In this document: positions 26,633 to 55,716 of the stretch, piece after piece | Layout of the letters: each line of letters begins with the position of its first letter | How positions within the stretch are numbered: the stretch's first letter is position 1 | Source of the DNA: a virus | Virus record (IMG/VR): IMGVR_UViG_3300048599_000281 | Reading direction: 5' to 3' (one strand) | DNA length: 64,000 nucleotides | Notes under the pieces: model-generated | Database searches by the model: none | The model's input: only the letters and a program-made list of their open reading frames with translations | Told to the model about the DNA's origin: nothing | Program-made: the position numbers and the translations under genes

Positions 26633-28213
26633 TCATTTTCCCGTGTCGGCGGTCACCTGTCCCTGACGCTTCTGCGCCGGGGCCTTTGACGTGGACGGGG
26701 AAACCGGTGGGACTGGCCGCTCGCCGACAGGCAGATTCACCTTCGGGGGCCAGCTTGCGATATCGCTTTCCATCTTGGCGCGGAGCTCCTCGCTCATGCG
26801 CGGAAACATCTTGTCGAGCATCTGGCGCATCTGTTCGCGGCGCGCCTCGTGCGGGGCGTCGACCAGCGCCAGCTTCTCAGCCATGGCGAGTTCGTCGGCG
26901 AGCCCGAGCACGTCGAAGGTGTCCGGGTATTTGACGAGCTCCTTGTCGAGCTCCACCGAATTCCACAGCATCACCAGCCGGTTCAGCTTGTTCTCGGCAT
27001 TCTCCAGGCTCGAAGCCTTGGAGGTCAGCAGCGAGTTCATGCGCTCGAAATCGTAGGCCTTGGCCACACCGGACGAATTGTCGATGCCGACGGCATTGTC
27101 CTGCTTGGTGCGCTCGCCACCCATGCCGATCGAGTGGTAGATTTCGTTGATGATCTTGTTGATCACCACGACGATCACCTGGGCCTGTTTGGGATCCGGC
27201 GACAGATATTCCGGCGCCACGCCGCCCTCGCCGTCGAACAGGAAGACGCGCTTGGTGCCCATTTCGAGCACCTTCTTGTAATCGTCCTCGCCCGGCAGCA
27301 TGCCCTGCGCCGGCATGGCGAGCTGCGAGAAAGTCTGATCCTGAATGATGGCGTCGAGGTTCGACAGGTAATTGGCGATCGCGCGATCGAGATAGGCGAT
27401 GTCGGCGATCAGCGCCGGCGCCGCATAGAGATTCTCACTGACCACGTTCGGCAGCGGGAAACCCGGAATCTCATTGATCGGATTTGGAGCCCGGCCGATC
27501 TCTTTGACCCGCTCGTCATTGCCCTTCTTCTCGATTTCGAACAGGCGCCACTCATCCTTGGTCCAGAGCCGGTAGAGATATTTCACCGTGCCGCTGGCCG
27601 TGATCGGATTCTCGTCGTCGCGCCAGGTTTCGCGCGTCAGCACCCAATTGACGCCGCCGCGCTCATCAAAACCGACATCGAGAATGTCCTGGGGCGGCAC
27701 GATATAGGCGTAGACCTGAGCGCGAGTTTTCTTCTCGTCAGCCTTGGAGATCGCGGTATCGTTCTTGGTGGTATCGGTGAAGACCCAGGGCATCCCCAGG
27801 ATCGAGGCCTTGGTCGAGGCCAGCCGCATGAACTGGTCGATATCGAGCCCGGACAGGGTCGCATTCTTCCAGAAGGTCTTGAGCTGCTCGGGAGCCTCCT
27901 CCTCGACGCGCTTCACCTTCGCCTTGAAGATGTATTTCTGGACGAGATCCACCACCTCGCGGGTGTGGTTGAAGCGATAGGCGCGCGCCAGGCGGTCCTT
28001 GAATTCCTTGTCGCCTTCCTTGAGGTATTGGAAGATATTGCCGGCGTCCTTGGAGAACCATTCTCGGCCGCCGTTATAGGTCGCCTCCAGGAACTCCCAG
28101 TGATCGATCAGCTCGGCATATTGCGGGTGCCGGCGCTTCAGAAAGCGCAGCATGACCTTTTGGTCTTCCGCCGCGGCGGCCTTGGAAGCGCTGGTTTTGG
28201 GGGTCTTGGCCAC
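26633..28213 (-). CDS. Portal protein
   Basis: 526 aa between terL and the scaffold gene. GTG start. Confidence 0.82.
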   Translation of the reverse strand: MAKTPKTSASKAAAAEDQKVMLRFLKRRHPQYAELIDHWEFLEATYNGGREWFSKDAGNIFQYLKEGDKEFKDRLARAYRFNHTREVVDLVQKYIFKAKVKRVEEEAPEQLKTFWKNATLSGLDIDQFMRLASTKASILGMPWVFTDTTKNDTAISKADEKKTRAQVYAYIVPPQDILDVGFDERGGVNWVLTRETWRDDENPITASGTVKYLYRLWTKDEWRLFEIEKKGNDERVKEIGRAPNPINEIPGFPLPNVVSENLYAAPALIADIAYLDRAIANYLSNLDAIIQDQTFSQLAMPAQGMLPGEDDYKKVLEMGTKRVFLFDGEGGVAPEYLSPDPKQAQVIVVVINKIINEIYHSIGMGGERTKQDNAVGIDNSSGVAKAYDFERMNSLLTSKASSLENAENKLNRLVMLWNSVELDKELVKYPDTFDVLGLADELAMAEKLALVDAPHEARREQMRQMLDKMFPRMSEELRAKMESDIASWPPKVNLPVGERPVPPVSPSTSKAPAQKRQGQVTADTGK

Positions 28214-34735: not shown

Positions 34736-36334
34736 GTGTCCACTGTCATCACCATTGCCCACAACGCCGTCGTTGCGCAGCTTCACGGCGCCGATGATGC
34801 GGTAAAAAATCTGATTTCAGAAAAGCTTAGCTACCTCGTCGAGGGTCACACCTTCATGGCGGCGTTTCAGACGCGCGGCTGGGACGGGCGCTCCTCTTTC
34901 TTCACGCGGAAGAATTGCGGATTTCCAGCCGGCTTCGTTCATCTGGTTCACTCGACGCTGATCCAGGCCGGCTATCTGGTGCGGATCGTCAAGCGCGAGG
35001 CGCCCGCCCCGCTCGGTCCGGAAACTCCGATCGTCGACGCCTTCGGCAACGACAATCCGAAATATGACTATCAGCTCAAGGCGTTGCGCCAGGTCGAAAA
35101 GTTTCAGCGCGGCATCATTCAGGTCGCGACCGGCGGCGGCAAGTCGAAGATCGCAAAGCTCATCACCGCGCGTTACCGGCGCATGACGCTGTTTCTGACC
35201 ACCCGCGGCGTGCTGCTCTATCAGATGCGCGATTCCTTCGTGAAAGATTGCGGCTTCAATGTCGGCATCATCGGCGACGGTGAATGGTCGCCGACTCGCG
35301 GCATCAATTGCGGCATGGTTCAGACTTTCGTCGCACAGCTCGTGGAGCCCGAGCTGGAGAAAGAGACCGCAGATCTGATCGCGGCCGCCTCGACCTCCGG
35401 CATGAAACTTACCTCCAAGCACAAGGAGGAGCTGCGCGCCGAGGCGAAGCGGATCTGCGCGGAGAAGGGCAAGGTTCGCGCGCGCATCATCAAGCTTCTG
35501 GAAATGGTCGAGGTCGTGATCGGCGAGGAAGCGCACGAAGCCGGCGGCAATTCCTATTACGAGATCCTGAAATATTGCAAGAATGCGAATATCCGGGTGG
35601 CGCTCACCGCGACGCCCTTCATGCGCGCCGATGCCGAAGACAACATGCGGCTGATGGCTGCTTTTGGCCCGGTTCTGATCAAGGTGTCCGAGGCCATGCT
35701 GATCGACCGCGGCATCCTGGCCAAGCCCTATTTCAAGTTCGTCGATTCCGTTCCCCATCCCAGCCTGTTCAAGACCTCGCCCTGGCAGCGCGCCTATCAG
35801 TTTGGCTATATCGAGAACACTCACATGCACGCCGACATTCTGCGCGACGCGCTGAATGCCAGAAAATACGGCCTGCCGGTGATGACGCTGATCCAGCGCA
35901 AGAAGCACGGCGAGATCCTGAAGGCGATCTTCGAGAAAAGCGGGCTGAAGGTTCGCTTCATTCAGGGTGAGAACGATCAGGACGAGCGCAAGCGCGCGCT
36001 CGATGCGCTCGGCTCGGGCAAGATCGATGTTCTGATCGGCACCACCATTCTCGATGTCGGCGTCGACGTGCCGGCGGTGGGGCTTGTGCAGCTCGCCGGC
36101 GGTGGCAAGGCCGAGGTTGCCTTGCGGCAGCGGATCGGCCGCGGCATGCGCTCCAAAAAGAACATGCCAAATCTGTGCTTTGTCGCCGATTACTCGGTCG
36201 AGAAGAACCTGAAGCTTCGCGAGCACGCCCAGCAGCGCCGGGCGATCATTCAGGGAACGCCTGGCTTTGCCGAGGGCATTTTGCCGCCCAAGGCCGACTT
36301 TCCCTGGCACCTCCTCGAAAAAAGAGCAGCGTGA
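34736..36334 (+). CDS. Superfamily-2 DEAD/DEAH-type helicase
   Basis: GTG start. Motif I ATGGGKSK, II IGEEAHEA, III TATP, VI QRIGRGMR. Confidence 0.9.
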   Translation: MSTVITIAHNAVVAQLHGADDAVKNLISEKLSYLVEGHTFMAAFQTRGWDGRSSFFTRKNCGFPAGFVHLVHSTLIQAGYLVRIVKREAPAPLGPETPIVDAFGNDNPKYDYQLKALRQVEKFQRGIIQVATGGGKSKIAKLITARYRRMTLFLTTRGVLLYQMRDSFVKDCGFNVGIIGDGEWSPTRGINCGMVQTFVAQLVEPELEKETADLIAAASTSGMKLTSKHKEELRAEAKRICAEKGKVRARIIKLLEMVEVVIGEEAHEAGGNSYYEILKYCKNANIRVALTATPFMRADAEDNMRLMAAFGPVLIKVSEAMLIDRGILAKPYFKFVDSVPHPSLFKTSPWQRAYQFGYIENTHMHADILRDALNARKYGLPVMTLIQRKKHGEILKAIFEKSGLKVRFIQGENDQDERKRALDALGSGKIDVLIGTTILDVGVDVPAVGLVQLAGGGKAEVALRQRIGRGMRSKKNMPNLCFVADYSVEKNLKLREHAQQRRAIIQGTPGFAEGILPPKADFPWHLLEKRAA

Positions 36335-38937: not shown

Positions 38938-39579
38938 ATGCTGGCAATTGCCTGCCTTTCGCAGAAAGGCGGCGTCGGGAAATCGACGCTCGCGCGACTG
39001 ATCGCACGCACCTACGCCGTCGGGAAATGGCGGGTAAAGATCGCGGATTTCAACGTCAAACAGAAAACCTCGGTGGATTGGGCCGCGACCCGCATGGCGC
39101 AGGGTGTGGAACCGGAGATCCAGGCCGAGGCCTTCACCGATGTCGCCAAGGCGCTCCGGGAGGACTTTGACCTGGTGGTGTTTGACGGCAAGCCGGATTC
39201 GGACATGCAGACGCTCCAGCTCGCGCGCGACGCCTCGCTCGCGGTCATTCCGACCGGCGTCTCGATCGACGACCTGATGCCGCAGGTGCGCTTCGCCAAC
39301 GAATTGAAGATGCGCGGAATTCCGCCCGAGAAGCTCCTGTTCGTGATCAACAAGACCACCGACAGCGCGGCCGCGACCGTCGACGCCAAGAACTTCATCA
39401 TCGCCGGCGGCTACCGTGTCGCGGTGGTGTCGCTGCCGATGAAGACCGCCTATGTGAATGCGCATAATTCCGGCCGCTGCGTCGCCGAGACCGATTTCCC
39501 GACGCTCAATGAGCGCGCCGAACAGCTTGCAGTCGAGATCGTGCGCGAGGCGACCAATCTAGGCAGGGCCGCTGCATGA
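38938..39579 (+). CDS. parA: ParA/Soj-family partition ATPase
   Basis: Deviant Walker A SQKGGVGKST. 213 aa. Confidence 0.9.
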   Translation: MLAIACLSQKGGVGKSTLARLIARTYAVGKWRVKIADFNVKQKTSVDWAATRMAQGVEPEIQAEAFTDVAKALREDFDLVVFDGKPDSDMQTLQLARDASLAVIPTGVSIDDLMPQVRFANELKMRGIPPEKLLFVINKTTDSAAATVDAKNFIIAGGYRVAVVSLPMKTAYVNAHNSGRCVAETDFPTLNERAEQLAVEIVREATNLGRAAA

Positions 39580-41253: not shown

Positions 41254-41721
41254 TTATGCGTCGACCCGTGACAGCAGGTAGCTGAGCATCCGGCGCCGCT
41301 GGTCTGCCTCATAGTCAGTCAGCAGCTCGTGGATCTTCAGGATCCCCTTCAGCTCATGATCGTCGGCCCGGATCGCCATGTGAACGTGCTCCGACGGCGC
41401 CAGCGTCACCGGCTCGGTCTGCACGATCTCATCGACAGGCAGCAGCTCATAGACCTCGTTGAAGGCGTCATCCTTCATGGCGCGCAACCACCCGTTCTGC
41501 TCCTCGACGATCCAGTCGCCAAAGAAAGCCTTGGAGCCAGACTTGGCGATCGTGAAATAGGGGTTCTGCCCGCCCTGGTAATAGAGCTTGCCCGTATTAA
41601 ACAGGGTGGAGATCCAGCCCCGTTCAGAAAAGCCAAAACGATGCGCACGAGCCAACGTCTCCGGCAGATGTGGCAAGCGCTGTCGGCGCCAACGATAGTC
41701 GTTAGGGGTTCCAAGAGCCAT
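41254..41721 (-). CDS. Hypothetical protein
   Basis: 155 aa from ATG 41721 with AAGGTG 6 nt upstream. Confidence 0.68.
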   Translation of the reverse strand: MALGTPNDYRWRRQRLPHLPETLARAHRFGFSERGWISTLFNTGKLYYQGGQNPYFTIAKSGSKAFFGDWIVEEQNGWLRAMKDDAFNEVYELLPVDEIVQTEPVTLAPSEHVHMAIRADDHELKGILKIHELLTDYEADQRRRMLSYLLSRVDA

Positions 41722-41737
41722 CAGAAGCACCTTTTCA

Positions 41738-41754
41738 ATCAGTCAGAACTGACG
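41738..41754. repeat. AGTCA-N4-TGACT family palindrome, copy 13
   Basis: ATCAGTCAGAACTGACG. Confidence 0.85.
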
Positions 41755-41757
41755 TTC

Positions 41758-41766
41758 AATATAGCG
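41758..41766 (-). promoter_or_regulatory. -10-like box CGCTATATT
   Basis: 3 nt upstream (in the sense direction) of palindrome copy 13. Confidence 0.55.
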
Positions 41767-42027
41767 CGGAAATCGACGGATGACAGATCCGGCAAGGACT
41801 GGAGAATTCCCGATCGGGCGCGGTCTCAGGACAGCGGACACCAGATGTCGATCCGCGAGCACCCGCAAGAAAGCCCCGTGGAATATAGGCCGGCAAGGAG
41901 TGGCGTAATCGGGTTGGCGACACAGGCGGCATAGGGATCGCGGGCGAAAAATCCCTCTAGGACTTCAGTGTCATTTTTATCACAGTCAAGCGCGGGATCG
42001 ATCGATGTGCGAAATTTATTTTCAGCG
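41767..42027 (-). ncRNA. Candidate non-coding transcript between two leftward promoter-like units
   Basis: About 260 nt with no credible ORF. A promoter-like unit (box + palindrome) lies at 42028-42059 and the next unit at 41738-41766. Confidence 0.25.
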
Positions 42028-42047
42028 ATCAGTCAGTAATGACTTGA
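42028..42047. repeat. AGTCA-N4-TGACT family palindrome, copy 14
   Basis: ATCAGTCAGTAATGACTTGA. Confidence 0.85.
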
Positions 42048-42051
42048 CGTG

Positions 42052-42059
42052 TAATAGCG
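42052..42059 (-). promoter_or_regulatory. -10-like box CGCTATTA
   Basis: Same box-plus-palindrome arrangement as at 41758, 55749 and 63724. Confidence 0.45.
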
Positions 42060-42124
42060 GAGCTCTAAGCTGCATCTATCGACGTTGAATCAACAACGCG
42101 ATGCAACACAAGAGAGATACGACA

Positions 42125-42730
42125 ATGTCTAAGAAGCAAGACGCATACAACGCGACTCGTGAAGCTGCATTCGATTCGCGCGTCGAATACGAGACTGCAA
42201 AGAACGCGAACAACGCGAACATGCAGAAGACGCTCGCAGACATGCGCAAGCTTTTCGCGAACGACAAGATTGCTAGCATCATGCTCGCGTGCAACGTCGA
42301 TGCGAATTTCATCAATCGCAACGAGCGCAACAACGCACGCTACAACGTGTATGCAGCAGAGAAAGTCGCGAACGTCGCGCGCTATCTCGCGAAAGTCGCG
42401 TCGCTGAATCACTACTCTCTCGCAATCATCAAGACAGCGCACGCGCTTGAACGCGCTTCGCTCAAGATGACGCACAAAGACGCTGCACGCGCTTGCACGA
42501 ATGACAGCAAGCTTTCTGACAAGACGCGCGAAGCTATCGTGTCGAAGTGCTGCTACGCTAAGACAGTCGCAGCGAATACAACGTCGACTCAGTCGTCGTC
42601 GTCAATCAACGCTTTGCAGACATTCAATGTCTTGAGCGAAGCGCGCGATGAAAATAACAACGTCGTCTATACGCTGAATCGCGAAAGCGATGCGACAAAG
42701 CAGATTCTCTCTGCGCTCGAATTGCAATAA
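42125..42730 (+). CDS. Gly/Pro/Trp-free protein, paralogue of 45342..46220
   Basis: 201 aa from ATG 42125 (GG-free RBS AAGAGAGA). Aligns with the 45342..46220 product, e.g. IMLACNV..ARYNVYAAEKVANVARYL vs VMIACTV..SRYNVYAIGKLADLVRGL, and TQSSSSINALQTF vs TQASSTMQALETL. Confidence 0.7.
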   Translation: MSKKQDAYNATREAAFDSRVEYETAKNANNANMQKTLADMRKLFANDKIASIMLACNVDANFINRNERNNARYNVYAAEKVANVARYLAKVASLNHYSLAIIKTAHALERASLKMTHKDAARACTNDSKLSDKTREAIVSKCCYAKTVAANTTSTQSSSSINALQTFNVLSEARDENNNVVYTLNRESDATKQILSALELQ

Positions 42731-42739
42731 CGCGACAAC

Positions 42740-42765
42740 GTGAAGCGCGCGAAAGCGCGCTTCAC
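42740..42765 (+). other. Intercistronic GG/CC-free hairpin
   Basis: GTGAAGCGCGC-GAAA-GCGCGCTTCAC, an 11-bp perfect stem with no T-run. Confidence 0.7.
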
Positions 42766-42798
42766 TCTCGCAAGATGCAAACACAAGAGAGATTGCAA

Positions 42799-43032
42799 AT
42801 GTCGAACAAGTCAAAGACTCTCACGTTGATTCGCGACGTGTCGCGCAAGATGAAAGCGAACACGCGCGAAGCGTCGCTTCTTTTGTCGCTCGATTATGAC
42901 GAATGCGAAGCGCAAGAATATCGTCGCGCTTGCGAGCGCGAGCAAACGAGCGACACAATGTCTGACGACTCGATTGCGTTTCATGCGCAGATGATTCGCT
43001 ATCATCGCAATCGCGCAAAGCTAGTGTTCTGA
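42799..43032 (+). CDS. Small Gly/Pro/Trp-free protein
   Basis: 77 aa from ATG 42799. Its leader ATGCAAACACAAGAGAGATTGCAAATG is nearly identical to that of the preceding gene. Confidence 0.6.
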   Translation: MSNKSKTLTLIRDVSRKMKANTREASLLLSLDYDECEAQEYRRACEREQTSDTMSDDSIAFHAQMIRYHRNRAKLVF

Positions 43033-43036
43033 CAAA

Positions 43037-43072
43037 ACCGCCACAGTGGCTCGATAGACTCACTGTGGCGGT
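43037..43072. terminator. Hairpin between convergent units (T-run only on the minus-strand side)
   Basis: ACCGCCACAGTG-N12-CACTGTGGCGGT. The minus-strand reading is followed by TTTTGTC. Confidence 0.6.
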
Positions 43073-43360
43073 CCAGCCACACGGCGCCTCCCGCGGCATA
43101 TCCGCCACACTGCCTCATCGCCGCCACGTCATCCAATAGCCACGTCACTGCCCAGCCACATGGCTTCCCGACCACATGGCATTTCCGCCATGTGTCCCTC
43201 GGGCCATGTGGCTTTTCCGTATGGGGCAGTGCCCCATGGGATCCCGCGGCGGCTCGGGGCGCCAAGGGGCCATTCGGCCAGTCCCATGGACCCTACCGGT
43301 TCCTAAAATCGCCGGCGCCCCACACCATGAGCGCCGACGCCTTTAGTCGCCTTTGTTCCT
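43073..43360. repeat. Noncoding array A: GCCAC(A/G)(C/T)(G) and CCATGG-type words
   Basis: GCCACACGG, GCCACACTG, GCCACGTCA x2 and CCACATGG x2 at roughly 16-26 bp spacing, then inverted CCATGTG x2 and CCCATGG x2. Ends with GGTTCCTA words. Confidence 0.8.
43281..43305 (+). repeat. 25-bp direct repeat GTCCCATGGACCCTACCGGTTCCTA, copy 1
   Basis: Identical to 45222-45246. Confidence 0.9.
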
Positions 43361-43670
43361 AAGCCGCTCGACTGAGCCCGATATATTCGCCATTCGGCTT
43401 GCCCCACTCTCTCCAGGGCAGACAGACATTCGGCAGCTTCTGCAGGCGTCGGTAATATTCCCGCAGGATCCGCGTCACCATCCGGGCCTCGGTGAGCGTG
43501 CGGCACTTGATCGGCGCTTCGAACAGGAACAGCGGCATCCACGCCACCCGCTTCAGACGGAGCGAGTATTCGTGGATCAGCACCGCGCCATCGATCACGA
43601 ACTCGATGGCGTCGCCGTTGGCGTTGAACTTGGTGGGACGGGCCTTTGCCTTGATCTTGAGCTTAGACAT
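43359..43670 (-). CDS. Hypothetical protein
   Basis: 103-aa ORF, overlapping the upstream gene by 8 nt. Confidence 0.62.
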   Translation of the reverse strand: MSKLKIKAKARPTKFNANGDAIEFVIDGAVLIHEYSLRLKRVAWMPLFLFEAPIKCRTLTEARMVTRILREYYRRLQKLPNVCLPWREWGKPNGEYIGLSRAA

Positions 43671-45070: not shown

Positions 45071-45300
45071 CCTAAAATCTCAGGCCACGGACTTCTCACC
45101 AAGGGCTTCGCCCCATGGAGAACCACGGTGCGCTCAACCCACGGCCGGGCCATGGCGCAAACCCCTTGGTTCGAACCCCGTGGGTCAGGCAGCCGAGGAT
45201 CGTCCCGGTGCCATGCACCGGGTCCCATGGACCCTACCGGTTCCTAGGCCTGACGCGCGTGGTTCCTAAAATCCTGGTCCCATGGCGCAGCTCGCACAGT
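45071..45300. repeat. Noncoding array B: CCATGG x4 plus CCACGG/CCGTGG/CCTTGG/CCAAGG words
   Basis: Dense CC-NN-GG hexamers. Contains the 25-bp block and a duplicated GGTTCCTA. Confidence 0.8.
45222..45246 (+). repeat. 25-bp direct repeat GTCCCATGGACCCTACCGGTTCCTA, copy 2
   Basis: Identical to 43281-43305. GGTTCCTAAAATC follows after a 14-bp insertion. Confidence 0.9.
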
Positions 45301-45341: not shown

Positions 45342-46220
45342 TCAGGCCGAGGTCGCCGCCATCATGCGCGCTTCCAGATGCGCCACCGCGGGGTGGTCCG
45401 TCAGCGTGAAGGTCGGGTTGCGAACCGAACCCTCGCGCTTGACGAGGCCCAGGGTCTCCAGAGCCTGCATCGTGGACGAGGCTTGCGTGGGCGCGGTCGA
45501 GGCGCTCACGGTGTGCCGATGCAGCGCCGAGCGCAGCGACACGTCCGCGACCTTGATCTTGTCCGAAGCCGCAGCCTTCGCCAGCTCGCCCGTGAAAGCG
45601 AGACCGGCCTTGCGGAACTGGAACAAGGACTTCAGACAGGCGCGGTTGATGGCGTTCTGGACCGAGCCATCGGTCAGACCGCGGACGAGATCGGCGAGCT
45701 TGCCGATCGCGTAGACGTTGTAGCGGGAACCCTCGTGATAGGTGCGATTGAGGGTCTCCGGGGTGACGGTACAGGCGATCATCACGCGAGCGGCGCGCCG
45801 CGTCACCATCGCCTCGCGAGCGGACTTGAGGGTGCGCTGGATATTGTGTCCATCGCCCTTCTTCGCCTTCTCGAACTCCACGCGCTCGTCGACCGCCTTG
45901 GCGATCTTGCCGACGACCACGTCCGCATCCGCATCGCTGATCGCGTTGATCTGCTGGCTGAACGGGGTGGAAGCCTGCGGATCTTCGACCGCGAGCACCG
46001 TCTGCGCCTCGATGTTGCTCGGCGCCGTCGGCACATGGACCGGTTCGGCTTCGAGGCTGAGGCTCTCGATCGCCGCAACGTCGTCGGCGTCGATCAGCAT
46101 CGGCGACGGGTCCATCTGGGCTTCGGTCGGGGCGGTGGTCTCGGTCATGGCGAACTCGGTCGCGGGCTTCTCGCTCGCCACCTCGACGTTCTTCGCCTTC
46201 TTGTCCTTACGCTTGCTCAT
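45342..46220 (-). CDS. Phage protein of unknown function (family with 42125..42730 and probably 57527..58219)
   Basis: 292 aa from ATG 46220 (GGAG 6 nt upstream); the track start at 46244 lies inside the conserved leader. Acidic N-terminal half and a conserved C-terminal half. Confidence 0.78.
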   Translation of the reverse strand: MSKRKDKKAKNVEVASEKPATEFAMTETTAPTEAQMDPSPMLIDADDVAAIESLSLEAEPVHVPTAPSNIEAQTVLAVEDPQASTPFSQQINAISDADADVVVGKIAKAVDERVEFEKAKKGDGHNIQRTLKSAREAMVTRRAARVMIACTVTPETLNRTYHEGSRYNVYAIGKLADLVRGLTDGSVQNAINRACLKSLFQFRKAGLAFTGELAKAAASDKIKVADVSLRSALHRHTVSASTAPTQASSTMQALETLGLVKREGSVRNPTFTLTDHPAVAHLEARMMAATSA

Positions 46221-46289
46221 TTCGATCTCCGTTGCTGTTTGCATCCGTCACGTTGTTGTGACGATTGCGACAGTCGCAGATCGCGGTGC

Positions 46290-46302
46290 GGAATGCGGTA
46301 GG
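46290..46302 (-). promoter_or_regulatory. CCWACCGCAWTCC-type upstream box (CCTACCGCATTCC)
   Basis: 45 nt upstream of the ATGCAAAC leader at 46237-46244. The hairpin CGTCAC-N6-GTGACG lies between them. Confidence 0.5.
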
Positions 46303-46399
46303 CAAATGCATAGGCGCACAGGCAGCTCGTGCGCGCTCGCGCGTTCTTTATACATGCGCACAACCGAGCTTTTAGGCAGGTGTGGGGTTGTGGCGGCGC

Positions 46400-46700
46400 G
46401 GGAGTGGAGCTGGTGTGGACTTCCTCGGTCGGGCCATGGCGAACCAAGGAGAACCAAGGAATGCCTCGGAGAGGCCATGGTCTCCCAGCCGGAGAGATCC
46501 GCCATGTTTCGTCTATTATAGGCCTAGTTATACCTAATAGACGAAAATAGGCTTTTTGGTCGAAATGGGAAAATGGGGTGTCGAGTGTTCCATGGCTCCG
46601 GCTCGGGAAAGGGGTTCGCCATGGGACAGCCTGGCGGCGGCGATCGCCAAGGTTCCTGCCGAAGCATGGCTCGCGCCGGTTCCTAGATTCCTGAACTGAT
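46400..46700. repeat. Noncoding array C: CCATGG x4, CCAAGG x3, GGTTCCT words
   Basis: Same word set as arrays A and B, interrupted by the 46507-46546 inverted repeat. Confidence 0.75.
46507..46546. repeat. Perfect 12-bp inverted repeat TTTCGTCTATTA-N16-TAATAGACGAAA
   Basis: Contains two CGTCTATTA boxes in opposite orientation. Confidence 0.9.
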
Positions 46701-46769
46701 GGGTGAAAGGGCGAGGCCGACACAAACGGGCCGGCCTCGCAAGGTGCGGACCGCAGCAAGTGCGGCCGT

Positions 46770-46830
46770 GATGCAAACGACACCGCGGAGATCGGTGAGA
46801 GCGTGTCTAAGCGCAAACCCCTAGACGCAG
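46770..46830 (+). pseudogene. Degenerate inverted copy of the leader and first codons of the 46220 gene
   Basis: GATGCAAACGACACCGCGGAGATCGGTGAGAGCGTGTCTAAGCGCAAA resembles GATGCAAACAGCAACGGAGATCGAAATGAGCAAGCGTAAG. The downstream ORF 46803..47192 has atypical third-position composition. Confidence 0.3.
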
Positions 46831-47028
46831 CGTCGCAAGCGAGAGATAGCGCGTGTCGATGTGGATCGCAATCGGCGGTCATAGGGCAGATCGTCAGGGG
46901 TGAGGATGGTGGGGCGCCAACCCGTCGTCTCACCTGTCTTCTTCCCCACGATCGTCTTTCTGTCTCCCCTATGCGTCTCCCCTGCCCTCGTCTCTCTATG
47001 GCGTCTCATGCTCTTAAGAGCCTGGTAG

Positions 47029-47037
47029 CGTCTATTA
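47029..47037 (+). promoter_or_regulatory. CGTCTATTA box, copy 4
   Basis: GCGTCTATTAGGT, in a tract with repeated CGTCTC words. Confidence 0.6.
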
Positions 47038-47125
47038 GGTGCTCTGGTGAGCATCGTCTCCGATATACGTTTTCCCTTATAGAAAGCGCAGATCCCGATC
47101 AGCTTCAGATTATAGATTTCGCGGT

Positions 47126-47138
47126 GTCGCTAAATCGC
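47126..47138 (+). promoter_or_regulatory. Isolated TCGCTA-type site GTCGCTAAATCGC
   Basis: Same half-site as the 56.6-kb array and the parA operator. Confidence 0.5.
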
Positions 47139-47233
47139 TCGGGGCTATCTTTCTGCGGGGTCTGTTTGCTTGTGCGGGGTGAGCACTCTTAAGTCTATCG
47201 GTGGTGTTTGTGCTGTCGGGAGTATGAGAATTT

Positions 47234-47496
47234 TGGTTGTCTTTTGGGTCGAAAATTATTTTGGGCGTTGGTTGTGCAACTAAGAGTCAACCAAACGACA
47301 ACCAGTCAGCACTGAATTGGTAATCGGGTATTGCCCGCAGAGCGATTTGGTTGTTATTTTGGTTGCATTGGGCCTGGAGAGAGCGGCGGGCTTGTGGGTG
47401 AAAATAGTGGCCTGGTGGGGTTGGACTACCAGGCCTGGTGGGGAGAGACCTCTGTGCGGTGGACCTGGTTGTTACTGGTTGTCTTGATGACAACCG
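47234..47496. repeat. TGGTTGT / ACAACCA word cluster
   Basis: At least 8 copies in both orientations (47234, 47269, about 47290-47303, 47348, 47359, 47466, 47476, 47490). The last ones fall inside the lipoprotein signal-peptide codons. Confidence 0.65.
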
Positions 47497-54483: not shown

Positions 54484-55716
54484 TTAGCCTTTCACATTGA
54501 CGAGGGTGCGCAGCCTGGTCTGAACCGAGATCAGATCGTCCTGGGCTGCGATGACTGCGGAAACGTCTTTGTAGGCGGCGGGACTTTCATCCAGGACCTC
54601 GCTGTCGCGGCGGCACTCGATGCCTTCGACCGCACGACAATGATCCTCCAGGGTGATCGTTTTCATCGCATCGCCGCGGCTCATGGCTCGCCCTGCCCCG
54701 TGACTGCACGAGGTGAACGAGTCGCGATTGCCCTTGCCCTTCACGATGAAGGAGCCGGTGCCCATCGAACCTGGAATGATGCCGTATTCGTCGAGCCGGG
54801 CGCGCGTCGCGCCCTTGCGGGTCACCCAGACATTCTTGTCGAAGTGATTTTCCTTCGCCGCGAAATTGTGGTGGCAATCGAAGCGCCAATGCACGGCGGC
54901 GCCGAGCACATCGATCACGGCGTCCATCATGGCGTTGCGGTTCGCTTTCGCGAAATCCTGCGCCCAGAGCATCGCCTCGATGTAGAGGCTAAAGTCCTTC
55001 TCGCCTTCCGGCAGAAAGGCGAGATTTGGATCCGGCAATTCAACGTGCCATTTCTCCATGTGCGCTTTCGCACGCCGCGTGAAGATGTTGGCAATTCGAG
55101 CGCCCGGCCCGCGCGAGCCGGAATGCAGCATCAGCCAGACGTTGTTGGCTTCGTCGGCCTGGACCTCGATGAAATGGTTGCCAGTGCCGAGCGTGCCGAT
55201 GTGACGCTCGGTATTCTTGATATCCAGCTCGGGCGTTTTGGCGAGAATGTCGCCCCATCGATACGACAACGATGCTCCAGGAACCGTGTCGCCGGCGAGC
55301 CGCCATCTGTTTTCAATTCGCTCGGGCACCTTGCCCCAGGCGCCGCGATCGTTCGGACCGCCATTGTCAGTGCGGCCGTGTGGCACCGCCTTCTCGATCA
55401 GATTGCGAGCACGGGCGACGCCGAACTCCTCCAGATCGTCGATGGTCATGTCGAGCTTCACCGACTGCATGCCACAGCCGATATCGACGCCGATCGCCGC
55501 CGGCACGATCGCGCCTTGTGTTGCGATCACGGATCCGATGGTCGAGCCCATGCCCCAGTGAACGTCGGGCATCGCAGCGACATGCTTGAAGATGAAAGGC
55601 AGCTTGGCGACGTTGAGAAGCTGTTGCCTGGCTTCGTCTTCGATATGAACGCCATTAACCCAGGCTTTGATGCCCGCGCCGCGCTCCTGGTCGAAATACT
55701 GGTAGTTCTGCGCCAT
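54484..55716 (-). CDS. rtcB: RNA-splicing ligase RtcB (3'-phosphate/5'-hydroxyl RNA ligase)
   Basis: 410 aa. MPDVHWGMG, GVDIGCGM, GTGNHFIE, HSGSRGPG and SCSHGAGR motifs. Confidence 0.95.
   Translation of the reverse strand: MAQNYQYFDQERGAGIKAWVNGVHIEDEARQQLLNVAKLPFIFKHVAAMPDVHWGMGSTIGSVIATQGAIVPAAIGVDIGCGMQSVKLDMTIDDLEEFGVARARNLIEKAVPHGRTDNGGPNDRGAWGKVPERIENRWRLAGDTVPGASLSYRWGDILAKTPELDIKNTERHIGTLGTGNHFIEVQADEANNVWLMLHSGSRGPGARIANIFTRRAKAHMEKWHVELPDPNLAFLPEGEKDFSLYIEAMLWAQDFAKANRNAMMDAVIDVLGAAVHWRFDCHHNFAAKENHFDKNVWVTRKGATRARLDEYGIIPGSMGTGSFIVKGKGNRDSFTSCSHGAGRAMSRGDAMKTITLEDHCRAVEGIECRRDSEVLDESPAAYKDVSAVIAAQDDLISVQTRLRTLVNVKG

What the first reader, a model, noticed from the sequence alone, without database searches (positions are those of the whole stretch)
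42061..43037. 977-bp tract with zero GG and zero CC dinucleotides, encoding two Gly/Pro/Trp-free proteins
Reading every 10-mer block and junction from 42061 to 43037, I find no GG and no CC. Upstream, 41998-42058 is also free, so the GG at 42059-60 is the only one across about 1040 bp. The tract is about half G+C, carried entirely by CG/GC steps. A random sequence of that composition would give on the order of 100 or more GG+CC occurrences.

The rule holds across codons, codon junctions, both 5' leaders, the ribosome-binding sites (AAGAGAGA instead of GGAG) and an 11-bp-stem intercistronic hairpin. That points to a nucleic-acid-level constraint rather than a codon-level one. As a consequence, both ORF products contain no Gly, Pro or Trp.

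The larger ORF is a clearly diverged paralogue of the normally composed gene 45342..46220. Gly positions there often align with Asn, Glu or Asp here. The tract is the only rightward unit inside the leftward early region. It starts at a divergent control region and ends at a hairpin, and is immediately followed by a GG/CC-dense repeat array. It also carries 11 GANTC sites by my count.

Hypotheses:
(a) A safe harbour from a GG/CC-dependent DNA-targeting activity. A single rule, no GG on either strand, would remove CC-type or NGG-type CRISPR PAMs and many GC-rich restriction, BREX or Dnd motifs.
(b) An mRNA made immune to a GG- or GGA-recognising factor, such as a RegB-like GGAG endoribonuclease or a CsrA-type binder.
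(c) The end state of CC-context cytosine deamination.
(d) A recoded or synthetic insert.

I know of no described natural element with this property.
Basis: partly seen in the sequence, partly recalled or inferred. Interest (0 to 1): 0.95.

Follow-up and report, generated by a model that had tools for sequence, protein, structure and literature searches.

The report
Conserved GG/CC-free phage-plasmid operon
A roughly 1-kb gene cassette of a phage-plasmid has no GG or CC dinucleotide on either strand, and dozens of distant relatives (including isolated Rhizobium phages) keep the same property, which suggests the cassette is built to escape an unidentified activity that recognises that dinucleotide.

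Summary
Window 42061-43037 has 0 GG/CC, against 130±9 expected; the next longest gap in the 64 kb is 64 bp. It is natural. An independent contig is 100% identical, and the property is conserved at the DNA level across a family of about 115-120-kb RHEph10-like phage-plasmids. Relatives include Rhizobium phages V1VFA-S and RHEph10, Sinorhizobium pLM21S1, Methylobacterium pAMS5a, Faunimonas and a marine contig. Twelve strict tracts total 14,010 bp with no GG or CC.

The rule holds within codons, at codon junctions (45 expected, 0 found), in leaders, in a remodelled AGAGAGA ribosome-binding site, in hairpins and in regulatory DNA. The Gly/Pro/Trp-free proteins are therefore a consequence of the nucleotide rule.

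There is one tract per genome. Its edge is a conserved 40-bp element (window 41928-41967), and the operon inside lies in either orientation. It encodes a winged-helix-like paralogue of a normally composed neighbouring gene, plus variable small ORFs. Some lineages have relaxed the rule.

My best reading (about 0.4) is selection for a target-free expression cassette, invisible to a duplex-level activity that depends on the GG·CC step. That agent is unidentified. RNA-level immunity, protein exclusion and mutational origin are the rivals. I found no description in the literature.

The parts
41928..41967 (+). Conserved bipartite 40-bp element GGCAT-N23-YCTARGACWTCR (here GGCATAGGGATCGCGGGCGAAAAATCCCTCTAGGACTTCA). 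It marks the ParA-proximal edge of the depleted zone and points into it.
   Evidence: Found with at most 4 mismatches in 21 of 22 related loci, once per locus, always at the tract edge. ORF1 is sense to it in 11 loci and antisense in 10. A scan of viral contigs with the element alone found 20 loci, 18 of them with a depleted first kilobase downstream.
41961..43037 (.). Whole GG/CC-depleted zone, counted from the element. Only three GG positions lie in it (41994, 41995, 42059).
42061..43037 (.).
42031..42044 (.). Operator-like palindrome AGTCAGTAATGACT overlapping the -35 box. It is a variant of the AGTCAG-N3-CTGAC(T) site found at about 15 mostly intergenic places in the window, including 41741-41753.
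   Evidence: (expected by chance 0.24) and direct reading.
42043..42071 (+). Sigma-70-like promoter of the operon: CTTGAC (42043-42048), 17-nt spacer, TAAGCT (42066-42071). The only GG near the tract (42059-60) lies in the spacer.
   Evidence: Direct reading. The consensus scan did not list it (8 of 12 matches), so this is an inference.
42110..42117 (+). GG-free ribosome-binding site AAGAGAGA of ORF1. An AGAGAGA or AGAAAGA leader is conserved in all relatives.
   Evidence: Pairing with the CUUUCU 3' tail of 16S rRNA is my inference.
42125..42730 (+). ORF1, 201 aa, free of Gly, Pro and Trp, pI 9.2. Helical N-terminal half plus a C-terminal winged-helix-like domain (motif TSTQSSSSINALQ). It is the short-form paralogue of 45342-46244.
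42740..42765 (+). Intercistronic hairpin with an 11-bp GG/CC-free stem.
   Evidence: -30.8 kcal/mol, z -5.45.
42785..42792 (+). Second AAGAGAGA ribosome-binding site. The leader is nearly identical to that of ORF1.
42799..43032 (+). ORF2, 77 aa, free of Gly, Pro and Trp. It is a lineage-specific accessory gene; relatives carry other small Gly/Pro/Trp-free ORFs at this position.
   Evidence: with no family matches.
43037..43072 (.). Inverted repeat CCGCCACAGTG...CACTGTGGCGG, the first unit of the repeat array. The tract ends at its base. It has no T-run, so it is not a canonical terminator.
   Evidence: The same palindrome, CCGCCACTGTGGCGG, lies in the array upstream of ORF1 in L002.
43038..43310 (.). 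GG/CC-hyperdense repeat array (CCGCCAC, GCCACATGG and CCATGG units), iteron-like, on the paralogue side of the cassette.
   Evidence: Top 0.4% of GG/CC density. Its end, 43266-43305, is repeated at 45207-45246.
45085..45250 (.). Second repeat array, downstream of the long paralogue. It closes with the same 40-nt sequence as the first array.
   Evidence: D2, D3, I1.
45342..46244 (-). Long-form paralogue, 300 aa, of normal composition (136 GG/CC; 11 Gly, 13 Pro). It serves as the internal control.
   Evidence: Among 66 long-form cluster representatives, none is free of Gly, Pro and Trp (median 25).

Best explanation
Shown: the tract is a natural gene cassette kept free of the GG·CC step by selection. 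It comprises a promoter with an operator, ORF1 (a winged-helix-like DNA-binding protein), variable small ORFs, hairpins and adjoining regulatory DNA. It belongs to the maintenance/immunity region of an RHEph10-like phage-plasmid. The rule is on nucleic acid, is the same on both strands, is absolute, and occurs once per genome. The Gly/Pro/Trp-free proteins, the loss of the preferred codons GCC, ACC, TCC and CGG, and the AGAGAGA ribosome-binding site all follow from it.

Inferred: an activity that recognises the GG·CC dinucleotide in duplex nucleic acid makes each occurrence inside this unit costly. It could cut, modify or block, and it could be encoded by the host or by the phage family. Each occurrence would interrupt the template or its expression. 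The cassette has evolved to present no target, so its regulator and accessory genes can be expressed whenever that activity is present. The rest of the genome either need not be expressed or intact at that moment, or is protected in some other way.

The agent is not identified, and the reason only this unit needs immunity is not shown.
For: 1. Reality and strength of the rule. The window tract has 0 GG/CC against 130±9 expected. At codon junctions 0 are found against 45 expected. Non-coding parts are free as well.

2. Conservation under sequence turnover. Twelve strict tracts total 14,010 bp with no GG or CC, from loci whose ORF1 proteins are only 25-66% identical. Even at conserved residues only 35-67% of codons are the same. 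Of 80 close homologues, 53 have zero Gly, Pro and Trp. Among 50%-identity cluster representatives, 36 of 84 short forms have none, against 0 of 66 long-form paralogues.

3. Selection rather than decay. CG and GC odds are 1.73 and 1.85, so G+C is kept up by the permitted steps. No other k-mer is excluded in this way.

4. Duplex-level symmetry. Both GG and CC are absent in every strict tract. The few exceptions in near-strict tracts follow the coding strand in the same proportion as in fully relaxed genes, so they show no extra strand bias.

5. Coverage beyond the ORF1 mRNA. In loci where the element is antisense to ORF1, the 70-135 bp between the operon's end and the element are free. About 330 bp beyond an intrinsic terminator are free in V1VFA-S and pLM21S1. 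Between 190 and 400 bp upstream of the proximal promoters are free.

6. Fixed edge. The tract edge sits at a conserved 40-bp DNA element whatever the operon's orientation. A scan with the element alone confirms this independently.

7. Uniqueness. There is one tract in the whole 117.7-kb pAMS5a.

8. Dependence on something that can be lost. Several lineages have relaxed the DNA rule while the protein remains almost free of Gly, Pro and Trp (L002, L012 and L020; partly L013 and L017).

9. Precedent within these genomes. They remove targets completely elsewhere: CTCGAG 0 against 34 and 107 expected, GTAC 0 against 114, CCCGGG 0 against 22.
Against: No enzyme or binding protein with GG·CC specificity was found in the window, in pAMS5a or in the M. 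oryzae plasmid.

A DNA-cutting agent would also destroy the rest of the genome, which carries about 140-190 GG/CC per kb. Why a 1-kb immune island would pay off is therefore unexplained.

CRISPR types with CC or NGG PAMs are, to my knowledge, uncommon in Rhizobiales. No host data were available to check this.

In L014 the accessory gene next to the element has normal composition while the ORF1 unit stays strictly free. The constraint therefore follows genes or transcription units, which an RNA-level rule would explain just as well.

The family carries RNA-repair genes (RtcB and PNKP), which hints that RNA-cleaving defences matter to it.
Confidence: 0.4

Rival explanations
1. RNA-level immunity. 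The transcripts of the cassette lack the motif cut or modified by an RNA-targeting enzyme of very short specificity, such as an mRNA-interferase-type RNase or an mRNA-modifying enzyme. They would then survive and be translated when all other mRNAs are inactivated. Absence of both GG and CC would follow if both strands are transcribed, with convergent promoters in the loci where the element points against ORF1.
For: The rule covers 5' leaders, ribosome-binding sites and intercistronic hairpins. In L014 a gene that has become a separate transcription unit is relaxed while the ORF1 unit stays strict. The conserved element contains TAAGAC/TAGGAC, a -10-like hexamer; separately, the window's own proximal promoter 100 bp downstream (CTTGAC-N17-TAAGCT, 42043-42071) has a similar -10. 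If the element is a promoter, the tract could be one long transcript. The phage family encodes RtcB and PNKP RNA repair and, in some members, tRNAs. From my own knowledge, ACA-less and GCU-less mRNAs escaping MazF and MqsR are precedents, as is the GA-specific mRNA ADP-ribosyltransferase CmdT.
Against: It needs two motifs, or transcription of both strands across the whole tract, in the sense-orientation loci as well. Exceptions in near-strict tracts show no bias beyond codon preference. The tract continues past intrinsic terminators and upstream of the proximal promoters. GG/CC is avoided even inside stable stems. No RNase toxin was identified.
Confidence: 0.2
2. A cis-acting physical or regulatory property of the DNA. 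The cassette must stay free of a protein that binds or spreads over GG/CC-containing DNA, for example the long paralogue or another factor nucleating on the GG/CC-hyperdense arrays. Alternatively it must avoid R-loop or G-tract structures, or GG oxidation sinks. Either way its regulator would stay expressed while neighbouring DNA is occupied.
For: The paralogue-side flank is an iteron-like array in the top 0.1-1.5% of GG/CC density in W, L029, L031 and L010. ORF1 and its paralogue are winged-helix-like DNA binders lying next to such arrays. The effect would be strand-symmetric and independent of orientation.
Against: Cooperative binding or structural effects depend on density and would not demand exactly zero over 0.8-1.6 kb at the price of three amino acids. 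Other maintenance genes (parA, repC) have normal composition. There is no direct evidence for such a protein. Selection from oxidative damage would be far too weak.
Confidence: 0.15
3. A polar process that starts at the 40-bp element. Candidates are the first-injected genome end (as in the T5 first-step-transfer region or the T7 leading region), entry of an exonuclease up to a Chi-like array, or a primer transcript. Such a process would need a GG/CC-free runway up to the repeat array.
For: The layout is fixed: element, then free tract, then dense array, in both operon orientations. B1VFA and V1VFA-S have fixed termini with 3.6-3.9-kb direct terminal repeats (PMC12509600). From my own knowledge, the T5 first-step-transfer DNA lacks EcoRI sites.
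Against: L014, and in part L001, L018 and L046, have ordinary or raised GG/CC directly after the element while ORF1 further in stays strictly free. The runway is therefore not continuous. In the deposited records the element is 7-44 kb from the record start, and there is no evidence that it is a terminus.
Confidence: 0.08
4. End state of a mutational process. Candidates are a CC-context cytosine deaminase acting on both strands of a constantly transcribed unit, or a RIP-like process acting on the duplicated gene.
For: G+C is lower in tracts (45-53%) than in flanks (55-67%). The gene is one of a paralogue pair. TC, CT and GA are mildly raised, with odds of 1.15-1.27.
Against: The largest enrichments are CG and GC (1.73 and 1.85), which are not deamination products. 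The ORFs are intact and under purifying selection across hundreds of clusters. ORF2 and the other accessory genes and the non-coding DNA are not duplicates, yet they are equally free. Zero in 14 kb requires removal of every new site. Synonymous turnover has occurred without any GG or CC appearing.
Confidence: 0.05
5. A constraint at the level of protein or tRNA. The products must be made without tRNA-Gly, tRNA-Pro and tRNA-Trp, for example during anticodon-nuclease attack, or must lack these residues for stability. The DNA pattern would then be secondary.
For: Relaxed lineages keep proteins almost free of Gly, Pro and Trp although their DNA has 53-71 GG/CC per gene. tRNA-repair genes are present in the family, and V1VFA-S carries a tRNA-Trp next to the cassette.
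Against: This cannot explain the absence at codon junctions (0 against 45 expected), in GCC, ACC, TCC and CGG codons, in leaders, in ribosome-binding sites, in hairpins and in hundreds of base pairs of non-coding DNA. The composition of the relaxed proteins fits slow amino-acid drift after the DNA rule was lost; Gly and Pro are creeping back in P0043, P0060 and P0073.
Confidence: 0.03
6. An assembly artefact, a vector fragment or a synthetic recoded insert.
For: None beyond the oddity of the sequence.
Against: An independent contig is 100% identical. Homologous free tracts occur in isolated phages and in complete plasmids from different laboratories and in many metagenomes.
Confidence: 0.005

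Closest known systems
Avoidance of restriction sites and CRISPR PAMs in phage genomes (for example CC-PAM depletion in Pseudomonas phages targeted by type I-F, PMC12174588)
   Same: A short sequence needed by a DNA-targeting activity is removed by selection on both strands. The same genomes do this completely for some 4-6-bp sites.
   Different: Known cases are genome-wide and, for dinucleotides, only statistical (8.27% against 8.74% CC). Here the loss is total, confined to one unit of about 1 kb, costs three amino acids, and has no known cognate enzyme.
Site-free leading DNA of phage T5 (first-step-transfer region without EcoRI sites) and the early-entering, early-expressed 0.3/ocr region of T7 (from my own knowledge)
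   Same: One small part of the genome is kept free of targets because it must work before the rest is protected. It carries early or protective genes.
   Different: In those phages one 6-bp site is missing, and the region is at the physical end that enters first. Here a dinucleotide is missing, the position relative to the termini is unknown, and the free zone is not always continuous from the element (L014).
Motif-free mRNAs that escape mRNA interferases: ACA-less messages under MazF, and the few GCU-less E. coli genes under MqsR (from my own knowledge)
   Same: A whole transcription unit, including leaders, lacks a very short motif and so stays expressible while other messages are destroyed.
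   Different: Those cases concern one strand and one 3-nt motif. Natural examples are short genes that may lack the motif by chance. There is no conserved family-wide recoding and no loss of amino acids.
CpG and UpA suppression in vertebrate RNA viruses, evading ZAP and RNase L (from my own knowledge)
   Same: Avoidance at the dinucleotide level, driven by an antiviral sensor or nuclease with dinucleotide specificity.
   Different: That suppression is genome-wide, partial and at RNA level in eukaryotic hosts. This case is bacterial, local, absolute and strand-symmetric.
Anti-defence or immunity operons made of an HTH regulator plus variable small genes (acr-aca loci, leading-region islands of plasmids)
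   Same: A conserved DNA-binding regulator is followed by small, fast-changing accessory ORFs, with an operator-controlled promoter.
   Different: There is no sequence or profile similarity to any known Acr, Aca or defence family. The regulator comes first in the operon. No such locus is known to be free of a dinucleotide.

Membership tests
Motif (restriction-site or PAM) avoidance | The motif is significantly under-represented given base composition, on both strands | tested here: met
   0 against 130±9 expected. 14,010 bp in 12 loci without GG or CC.
Motif (restriction-site or PAM) avoidance | The avoidance extends over the whole genome exposed to the enzyme | tested here: not met
   Only one tract in the 117.7-kb pAMS5a and one in the 64-kb window. 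The rest carries 137-190 GG/CC per kb.
Motif (restriction-site or PAM) avoidance | A cognate enzyme with that specificity exists in the host or in the element | not testable with these tools
   No host genomes or CRISPR/R-M typing were at hand. No candidate appears in the phage-plasmid annotations.
Motif-free mRNA escaping an mRNA interferase | The motif is absent from the whole transcript, including untranslated parts | tested here: met
   Leaders, ribosome-binding sites and the intercistronic hairpin are free.
Motif-free mRNA escaping an mRNA interferase | The constraint is limited to the transcribed strand and to the transcribed region | tested here: not met
   Both GG and CC are absent. 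The tract runs past terminators, upstream of the proximal promoters, and up to a DNA element in either orientation. Transcript maps are lacking, so this remains provisional.
Motif-free mRNA escaping an mRNA interferase | A cognate endoribonuclease toxin is present | tested here: inconclusive
   None was recognised among the window ORFs tested with Pfam, PHROGs, PADLOC and NCBIfam. Only part of the genome was scanned, and host genomes were not available.
Site-free first-entering region (T5 first-step-transfer or T7 early type) | Located at the genome end that enters the cell first | not testable with these tools
   Direct terminal repeats are reported for B1VFA and V1VFA-S, but their position is not given. 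Read data are needed.
Site-free first-entering region (T5 first-step-transfer or T7 early type) | An uninterrupted target-free stretch from the entry point | tested here: not met
   L014 has 32 GG/CC in the first 500 bp after the element, then 0 in the next 500 bp.
Winged-helix (ArsR/MarR/TubR-like) DNA-binding proteins | A helix-turn-helix followed by a beta-hairpin wing, with structural similarity to solved members | tested here: inconclusive
   The AF2 model has pLDDT 95, with helices at 133-140 and 150-166 and strands at 170-174 and 180-184. Foldseek hits to wHTH regulators are weak (E 0.17-1, TM 0.3-0.6 on the target). There are no Pfam or PDB sequence hits.
Iteron-plasmid Rep initiators (RepA/RepE/Pi, RepC) | Sequence or profile similarity to Rep families, with two winged-helix domains | tested here: not met
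   There are no Pfam or NCBIfam hits. RepC is encoded elsewhere in relatives (pAMS5a 1173-2360). Only one WH-like domain is predicted.
Acr-Aca anti-defence operon | Similarity to known Aca or Acr families, or to defence-related profiles | tested here: not met
   No matches in Pfam, PHROGs, PADLOC or NCBIfam. Only the architecture is similar.
Deaminase- or RIP-type mutational footprint | Excess of the mutation products, A+T drift, and decay of the coding sequence | tested here: not met
   CG and GC are the most enriched steps (1.73 and 1.85). The ORFs are intact and conserved in 421 clusters.

The most novel reading that the evidence does not exclude
Alphaproteobacteria or their RHEph10-like phage-plasmids harbour an undescribed nucleic-acid-targeting activity whose recognition element is just the GG·CC dinucleotide. 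It could be a nuclease, a modifying enzyme or a blocking protein. This cassette would be its negative image: an immunity or regulatory operon recoded by natural selection to contain no target, which forces its proteins to be built from a 17-amino-acid alphabet.
Probability: 0.5. Interest if true: 0.95.

Novelty: categorically new. Interest (0 to 1): 0.9.

Why it matters
If the reading is right, three things follow.

1. It would be the first natural operon recoded to exclude a dinucleotide completely. It would show that functional, well-folded proteins (pLDDT 95) can evolve and persist for long periods without Gly, Pro or Trp.

2. It points to an unknown agent with dinucleotide specificity, and it gives a ready assay for finding that agent: add GG/CC back and see what breaks. 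Such an agent would be a new kind of defence or shut-off system, and possibly a new enzyme tool.

3. It offers a general search principle. Local, absolute k-mer voids in mobile elements could serve as footprints of unidentified targeting systems.

It also defines conserved cis elements of a widespread but almost unstudied group of phage-plasmids in rhizobia and methylobacteria. These are the 40-bp element, the AGTCAG-N3-CTGAC operator-like sites and the GG-free ribosome-binding site.

Tried and rejected
- Near-identical DNA in the phage and plasmid collections: none. Protein-level searches were needed to find relatives.
- Pfam, PHROGs, PADLOC, NCBIfam and PDB sequence searches for ORF1, ORF2, the paralogue and their neighbours: no hits. 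Foldseek against viral models found only uncharacterised proteins.
- Rfam on the window region and on five relatives: only tRNAs. There are no tRNAs in the window.
- GANTC enrichment: not supported once composition is allowed for.
- Stronger avoidance of GG than of CC in the mRNA: a first test gave p=0.023. With more loci, and with the two orientation classes separated, the bias simply follows the coding strand as it does in relaxed genes. I dropped this idea.
- Gene-content comparison of a strict genome (pAMS5a) with a relaxed one (M. oryzae plasmid), to find the agent: the two are too divergent to single out a gene. The two methyltransferase-domain genes unique to the relaxed plasmid are generic class-I SAM methyltransferases, not recognisable DNA methyltransferases.
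- GC skew of pAMS5a: it follows gene orientation and does not place an origin at the cassette.
- An upstream tRNA-like stretch in V1VFA-S: not a tRNA.
- My first placement of the element in the window, at 42063, was wrong. The true copy is at 41928-41967.
- Literature searches on GG/CC-free tracts, on these phages and on PAM depletion: no description of the phenomenon.
Full report
**1. The observation**

Window 42061-43037 (977 bp, 51.6% G+C) contains no GG and no CC. The gap between GG/CC positions runs from 42059 to 43038 (979 bp). The next longest gap in the 64,000-bp window is 64 bp and lies directly upstream. The mean gap is 7.3 bp, so a gap of this size has a geometric expectation of about 1e-59.

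Shuffling confirms this. Mononucleotide shuffles give 130±9 GG/CC, minimum 98. Shuffling codon order while keeping every codon gives 32.4 junction GG/CC for ORF1 and 12.7 for ORF2; none of 20,000 shuffles reached zero. Re-encoding the two proteins with the phage's own codon usage gives 57 and 25. The non-coding stretches are free too: 41996-42124 has 1 against 11.8 expected, and 42731-42798 has 0 against 9.5.

The rule is therefore on the nucleic acid. The absence of Gly (GGN), Pro (CCN) and Trp (TGG) follows from it. So does the absence of GCC, ACC, TCC and CGG, which make up 40%, 58%, 23% and 17% of Ala, Thr, Ser and Arg codons elsewhere in the window.

The normally composed paralogue at 45342-46244 is 33% identical to ORF1 (E 2e-25). 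It carries 136 GG/CC, 11 Gly and 13 Pro. An independently assembled JGI contig is 100% identical to window 41688-43412.

**2. Context**

The window is part of a tailed phage that also carries plasmid-maintenance genes:
- portal protein, 26633-28213
- DEAD-box helicase, 34736-36334
- ParA, 38938-39579, followed by a small ribbon-helix-helix protein
- RtcB, 54484-55716

Relatives are replicons or contigs of about 107-122 kb: Faunimonas pinastri, Methylobacterium sp. AMS5 plasmid pAMS5a, a Methylobacterium oryzae plasmid, Sinorhizobium sp. LM21 pLM21S1, and the isolated Rhizobium phages RHEph10, V1VFA-S, B1VFA and RHph_X66. The literature describes these as phage-plasmids carrying parA, parB and repC (PMC5537653; PMC12509600). 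None of those papers mentions a GG/CC-free tract.

**3. Conservation**

ORF1 has 80 close homologues (41-100% identity), and 53 of them have zero Gly, Pro and Trp. A profile search of 1.84 billion cluster representatives finds 421 clusters. Among the best 150, 36 of 84 short-form representatives (262 aa or fewer) have none of the three residues and 48 have at most two. None of the 66 long-form (paralogue-type) representatives is free; their median is 25.

The same holds at the DNA level. Strictly free tracts of 681-1,590 bp occur in many loci:

| Locus | Strictly free tract (bp) |
|---|---|
| L005 | 951 |
| L007 | 830 |
| pAMS5a | 1,531 |
| L014 | 750 |
| L015 | 1,373 |
| L021 | 1,590 |
| L022 | 942 |
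| L024 | ≥1,294 |
| L026 (marine TARA contig) | ≥1,179 |

Tracts also occur where ORF1 is too diverged for my first search:

| Genome | Tract |
|---|---|
| V1VFA-S | 1,279 bp over gp039 and gp038 |
| pLM21S1 | 1,334 bp |
| RHEph10 | about 1.2 kb with four exceptions |

Twelve strict tracts sum to 14,010 bp without a single GG or CC. No other k-mer is excluded in this way, and CG and GC are enriched 1.73- and 1.85-fold. Their ORF1 proteins are only 25-66% identical, and only 35-67% of codons at conserved residues are the same. Synonymous sites have therefore turned over without ever fixing a GG or CC. pAMS5a has exactly one such tract in 117,697 bp.

Some lineages have relaxed the rule:
- a few exceptions: L001, L008, L009, L010, L018, L023
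- intermediate: L013, L017
- fully relaxed: the M. oryzae-type clade (L002, L012, L020), with 53-71 GG/CC per gene but still only 0-2 Gly and 0-1 Pro

This fits loss of the DNA rule followed by slow amino-acid drift.

**4. Anatomy**

The tract is a cassette. It holds a promoter (in the window CTTGAC-N17-TAAGCT, 42043-42071) that overlaps an operator-like palindrome (42031-42044). The ribosome-binding site is a GG-free AGAGAGA or AGAAAGA in every relative. ORF1 follows, then zero to three further Gly/Pro/Trp-free ORFs that differ between lineages; ORF2 of the window has no homologue in the other loci. The cassette also contains GG/CC-free hairpins and terminators.

ORF1 folds with high confidence (pLDDT 95) into a helical N-terminal half and a C-terminal winged-helix-like domain. 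Its similarity to solved wHTH regulators is weak. No family library names it.

The palindrome AGTCAG-N3-CTGAC(T) occurs at about 15 mostly intergenic places in the window, against 0.24 expected. That pattern suggests a regulator that acts across the whole genome.

On the paralogue side the cassette abuts an iteron-like array that ranks among the most GG/CC-dense DNA of the genome.

**5. A fixed edge, a reversible content**

A 40-bp bipartite element, GGCAT-N23-YCTARGACWTCR, occurs once per locus. It is always at the ParA-proximal edge of the depleted zone and points into it. In the window it lies at 41928-41967. Downstream of it, strict loci have 0-3 GG/CC in the first kilobase. Density then returns to 50-130 per 500 bp, and the 300 bp upstream hold 35-63.

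ORF1 is sense to the element in 11 loci and antisense in 10. Where it is antisense, the 70-135 bp between the operon's end and the element are also free. In V1VFA-S and pLM21S1 the free zone continues about 330 bp past an intrinsic terminator.

As an independent test I scanned viral contigs for the element alone. This returned 20 loci, and 18 of them have a strongly depleted first kilobase.

The zone is not always continuous, however. In L014 the accessory gene next to the element has its own promoter and normal composition (32 GG/CC in the 500 bp next to the element), while the ORF1 unit further in remains perfectly free. The constraint therefore follows individual genes or transcription units.

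**6. What it most likely is**

The facts to explain are these:
- absolute, strand-symmetric exclusion of one dinucleotide step
- maintained by strong selection, strong enough to forgo three amino acids, the preferred codons and the canonical Shine-Dalgarno sequence
- confined to one unit per genome
- independent of the unit's orientation
- extending into regulatory DNA that is probably untranscribed
- capable of being lost

A per-site effect on duplex nucleic acid fits these best. Some activity that needs GG·CC makes every occurrence in this unit costly, and the unit has become target-free. These genomes do remove targets completely elsewhere: CTCGAG, CAGCTG, CCCGGG and GGGCCC are absent from the rest of the window, and CTCGAG and GTAC from pAMS5a.

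I put this reading at about 0.4, because the agent is unknown and the reason for a local island is unexplained. The rivals are listed in the table.

| Rival | Weight | Main reason for the weight |
|---|---|---|
| RNA-level immunity | 0.2 | Supported by L014 and by the family's RtcB/PNKP RNA-repair genes. Weakened by strand symmetry, which persists in the exceptions, and by coverage outside the operon. |
| Exclusion of a protein that binds the flanking arrays, or another structural property | 0.15 | Such effects depend on density and would not demand exactly zero. |
| A polar runway from the element | 0.08 | Contradicted by L014. |
| Mutational end state | 0.05 | Contradicted by CG/GC enrichment and intact, conserved ORFs. 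|
| tRNA- or protein-level cause | 0.03 | Contradicted by the codon-junction and non-coding evidence. |
| Artefact or synthetic insert | <0.01 | Refuted by conservation and the identical independent contig. |

**7. Comparison with what is known, and novelty**

The logic resembles four known phenomena:
- avoidance of restriction sites and PAMs, though the nearest published dinucleotide case is a 0.5-percentage-point, genome-wide CC depletion (PMC12174588)
- the site-free first-entering DNA of T5 and T7
- motif-free mRNAs under MazF and MqsR
- CpG suppression against ZAP

None of these is local, absolute, strand-symmetric and conserved across a family, and none reshapes protein composition. Six literature searches found no description of the phenomenon.

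I rate the phenomenon as categorically new. The general principle of target avoidance does have precedents, and the mechanism remains inferred.

Noticed in passing
whole window outside 41996-43037; also pAMS5a (L028, L032, L033): Some restriction-type palindromes are missing from the whole genome. In the window: CTCGAG 0 (34 expected), CAGCTG 0 (19), CCCGGG 0 (22), GGGCCC 0 (20), GTAC 22 (64). In pAMS5a: CTCGAG 0 (107), GTAC 0 (114), GGATCC 1 (56), CCCGGG 2 (65), TGGCCA 2 (22). This implies strong restriction pressure that differs between lineages.
   Followed up: partly
window 13362, 19056, 20601, 24570, 25536, 32046, 34688, 41741, 55729, 63707 and others: The palindrome AGTCAG-N3-CTGAC(T) occurs about 15 times, mostly between genes, against 0.24 expected. 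It looks like the operator set of a regulator acting across the genome, as with the scattered operators of the P1 C1 repressor. A variant overlaps the cassette promoter at 42031-42044.
   Followed up: partly
window 41928-41967; L029 10875-10914; L031 13607-13646; L030 13666-13705; many others: A 40-bp bipartite element, GGCAT-N23-YCTARGACWTCR, occurs once per genome. It is more conserved than the neighbouring proteins and is kept even in relaxed lineages. Whether it is a promoter, a terminus or pac site, or a protein-binding site is unknown.
   Followed up: partly
L030 (RHEph10, NC_034248.1 99105-99785, gp097): The deposited annotation places gp097 on the wrong strand. The real gene is the Gly/Pro/Trp-poor ORF1 homologue on the opposite strand, preceded by the family's GAAAGAGAGA leader.
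   Followed up: yes
window 54484-55716; L001 321-1631 and 18708-19169: An RtcB RNA ligase is found in the window and in F. pinastri (L001), which also carries a HAD/PNKP-type end-healing enzyme. Together they would form an RNA (tRNA) repair pair. V1VFA-S also carries tRNA-Met, tRNA-Asn and tRNA-Trp right next to its cassette.
   Followed up: no
window 43266-43305 and 45207-45246: Both repeat arrays, one after the cassette and one after the long paralogue, end with the same 40-nt sequence (85% identical, same strand), ...CCCATGGACCCTACCGGTTCCTA.
   Followed up: no
window 42125-43032 compared with L001, L007, L010, L028: The operon is inverted relative to its flanks (ParA on one side, the paralogue on the other) in about half of the lineages, while the 40-bp element stays in place. 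The closest relative of the window's ORF1 (L001, 62% identity) has the opposite orientation, so inversion happened more than once.
   Followed up: partly
window 46245-47330: About 1.1 kb upstream of the long paralogue has no convincing ORF. A similar 1.2-kb gap lies upstream of V1VFAS_035 in V1VFA-S.
   Followed up: no
window 42110-42117 and 42785-42792; all relatives: The ribosome-binding sites are GG-free purine runs (AAGAGAGA, AGAAAGA). They could pair with the CUUUCU 3' end of 16S rRNA instead of the CCUCC core; this is my inference. Both leaders in the window are near-duplicates: GATGCAA(A)CACAAGAGAGAT..CAAATGTC.
   Followed up: no
L034 7593-10309 and L035 47505-49297 (M. oryzae plasmid): The relaxed plasmid carries a TcmP/DUF5131 pair, a HEPN/Toprim-associated protein and two generic SAM methyltransferases next to repC. 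The TcmP/DUF5131 pair also has homologues in strict pAMS5a, so none of these explains the relaxation.
   Followed up: partly
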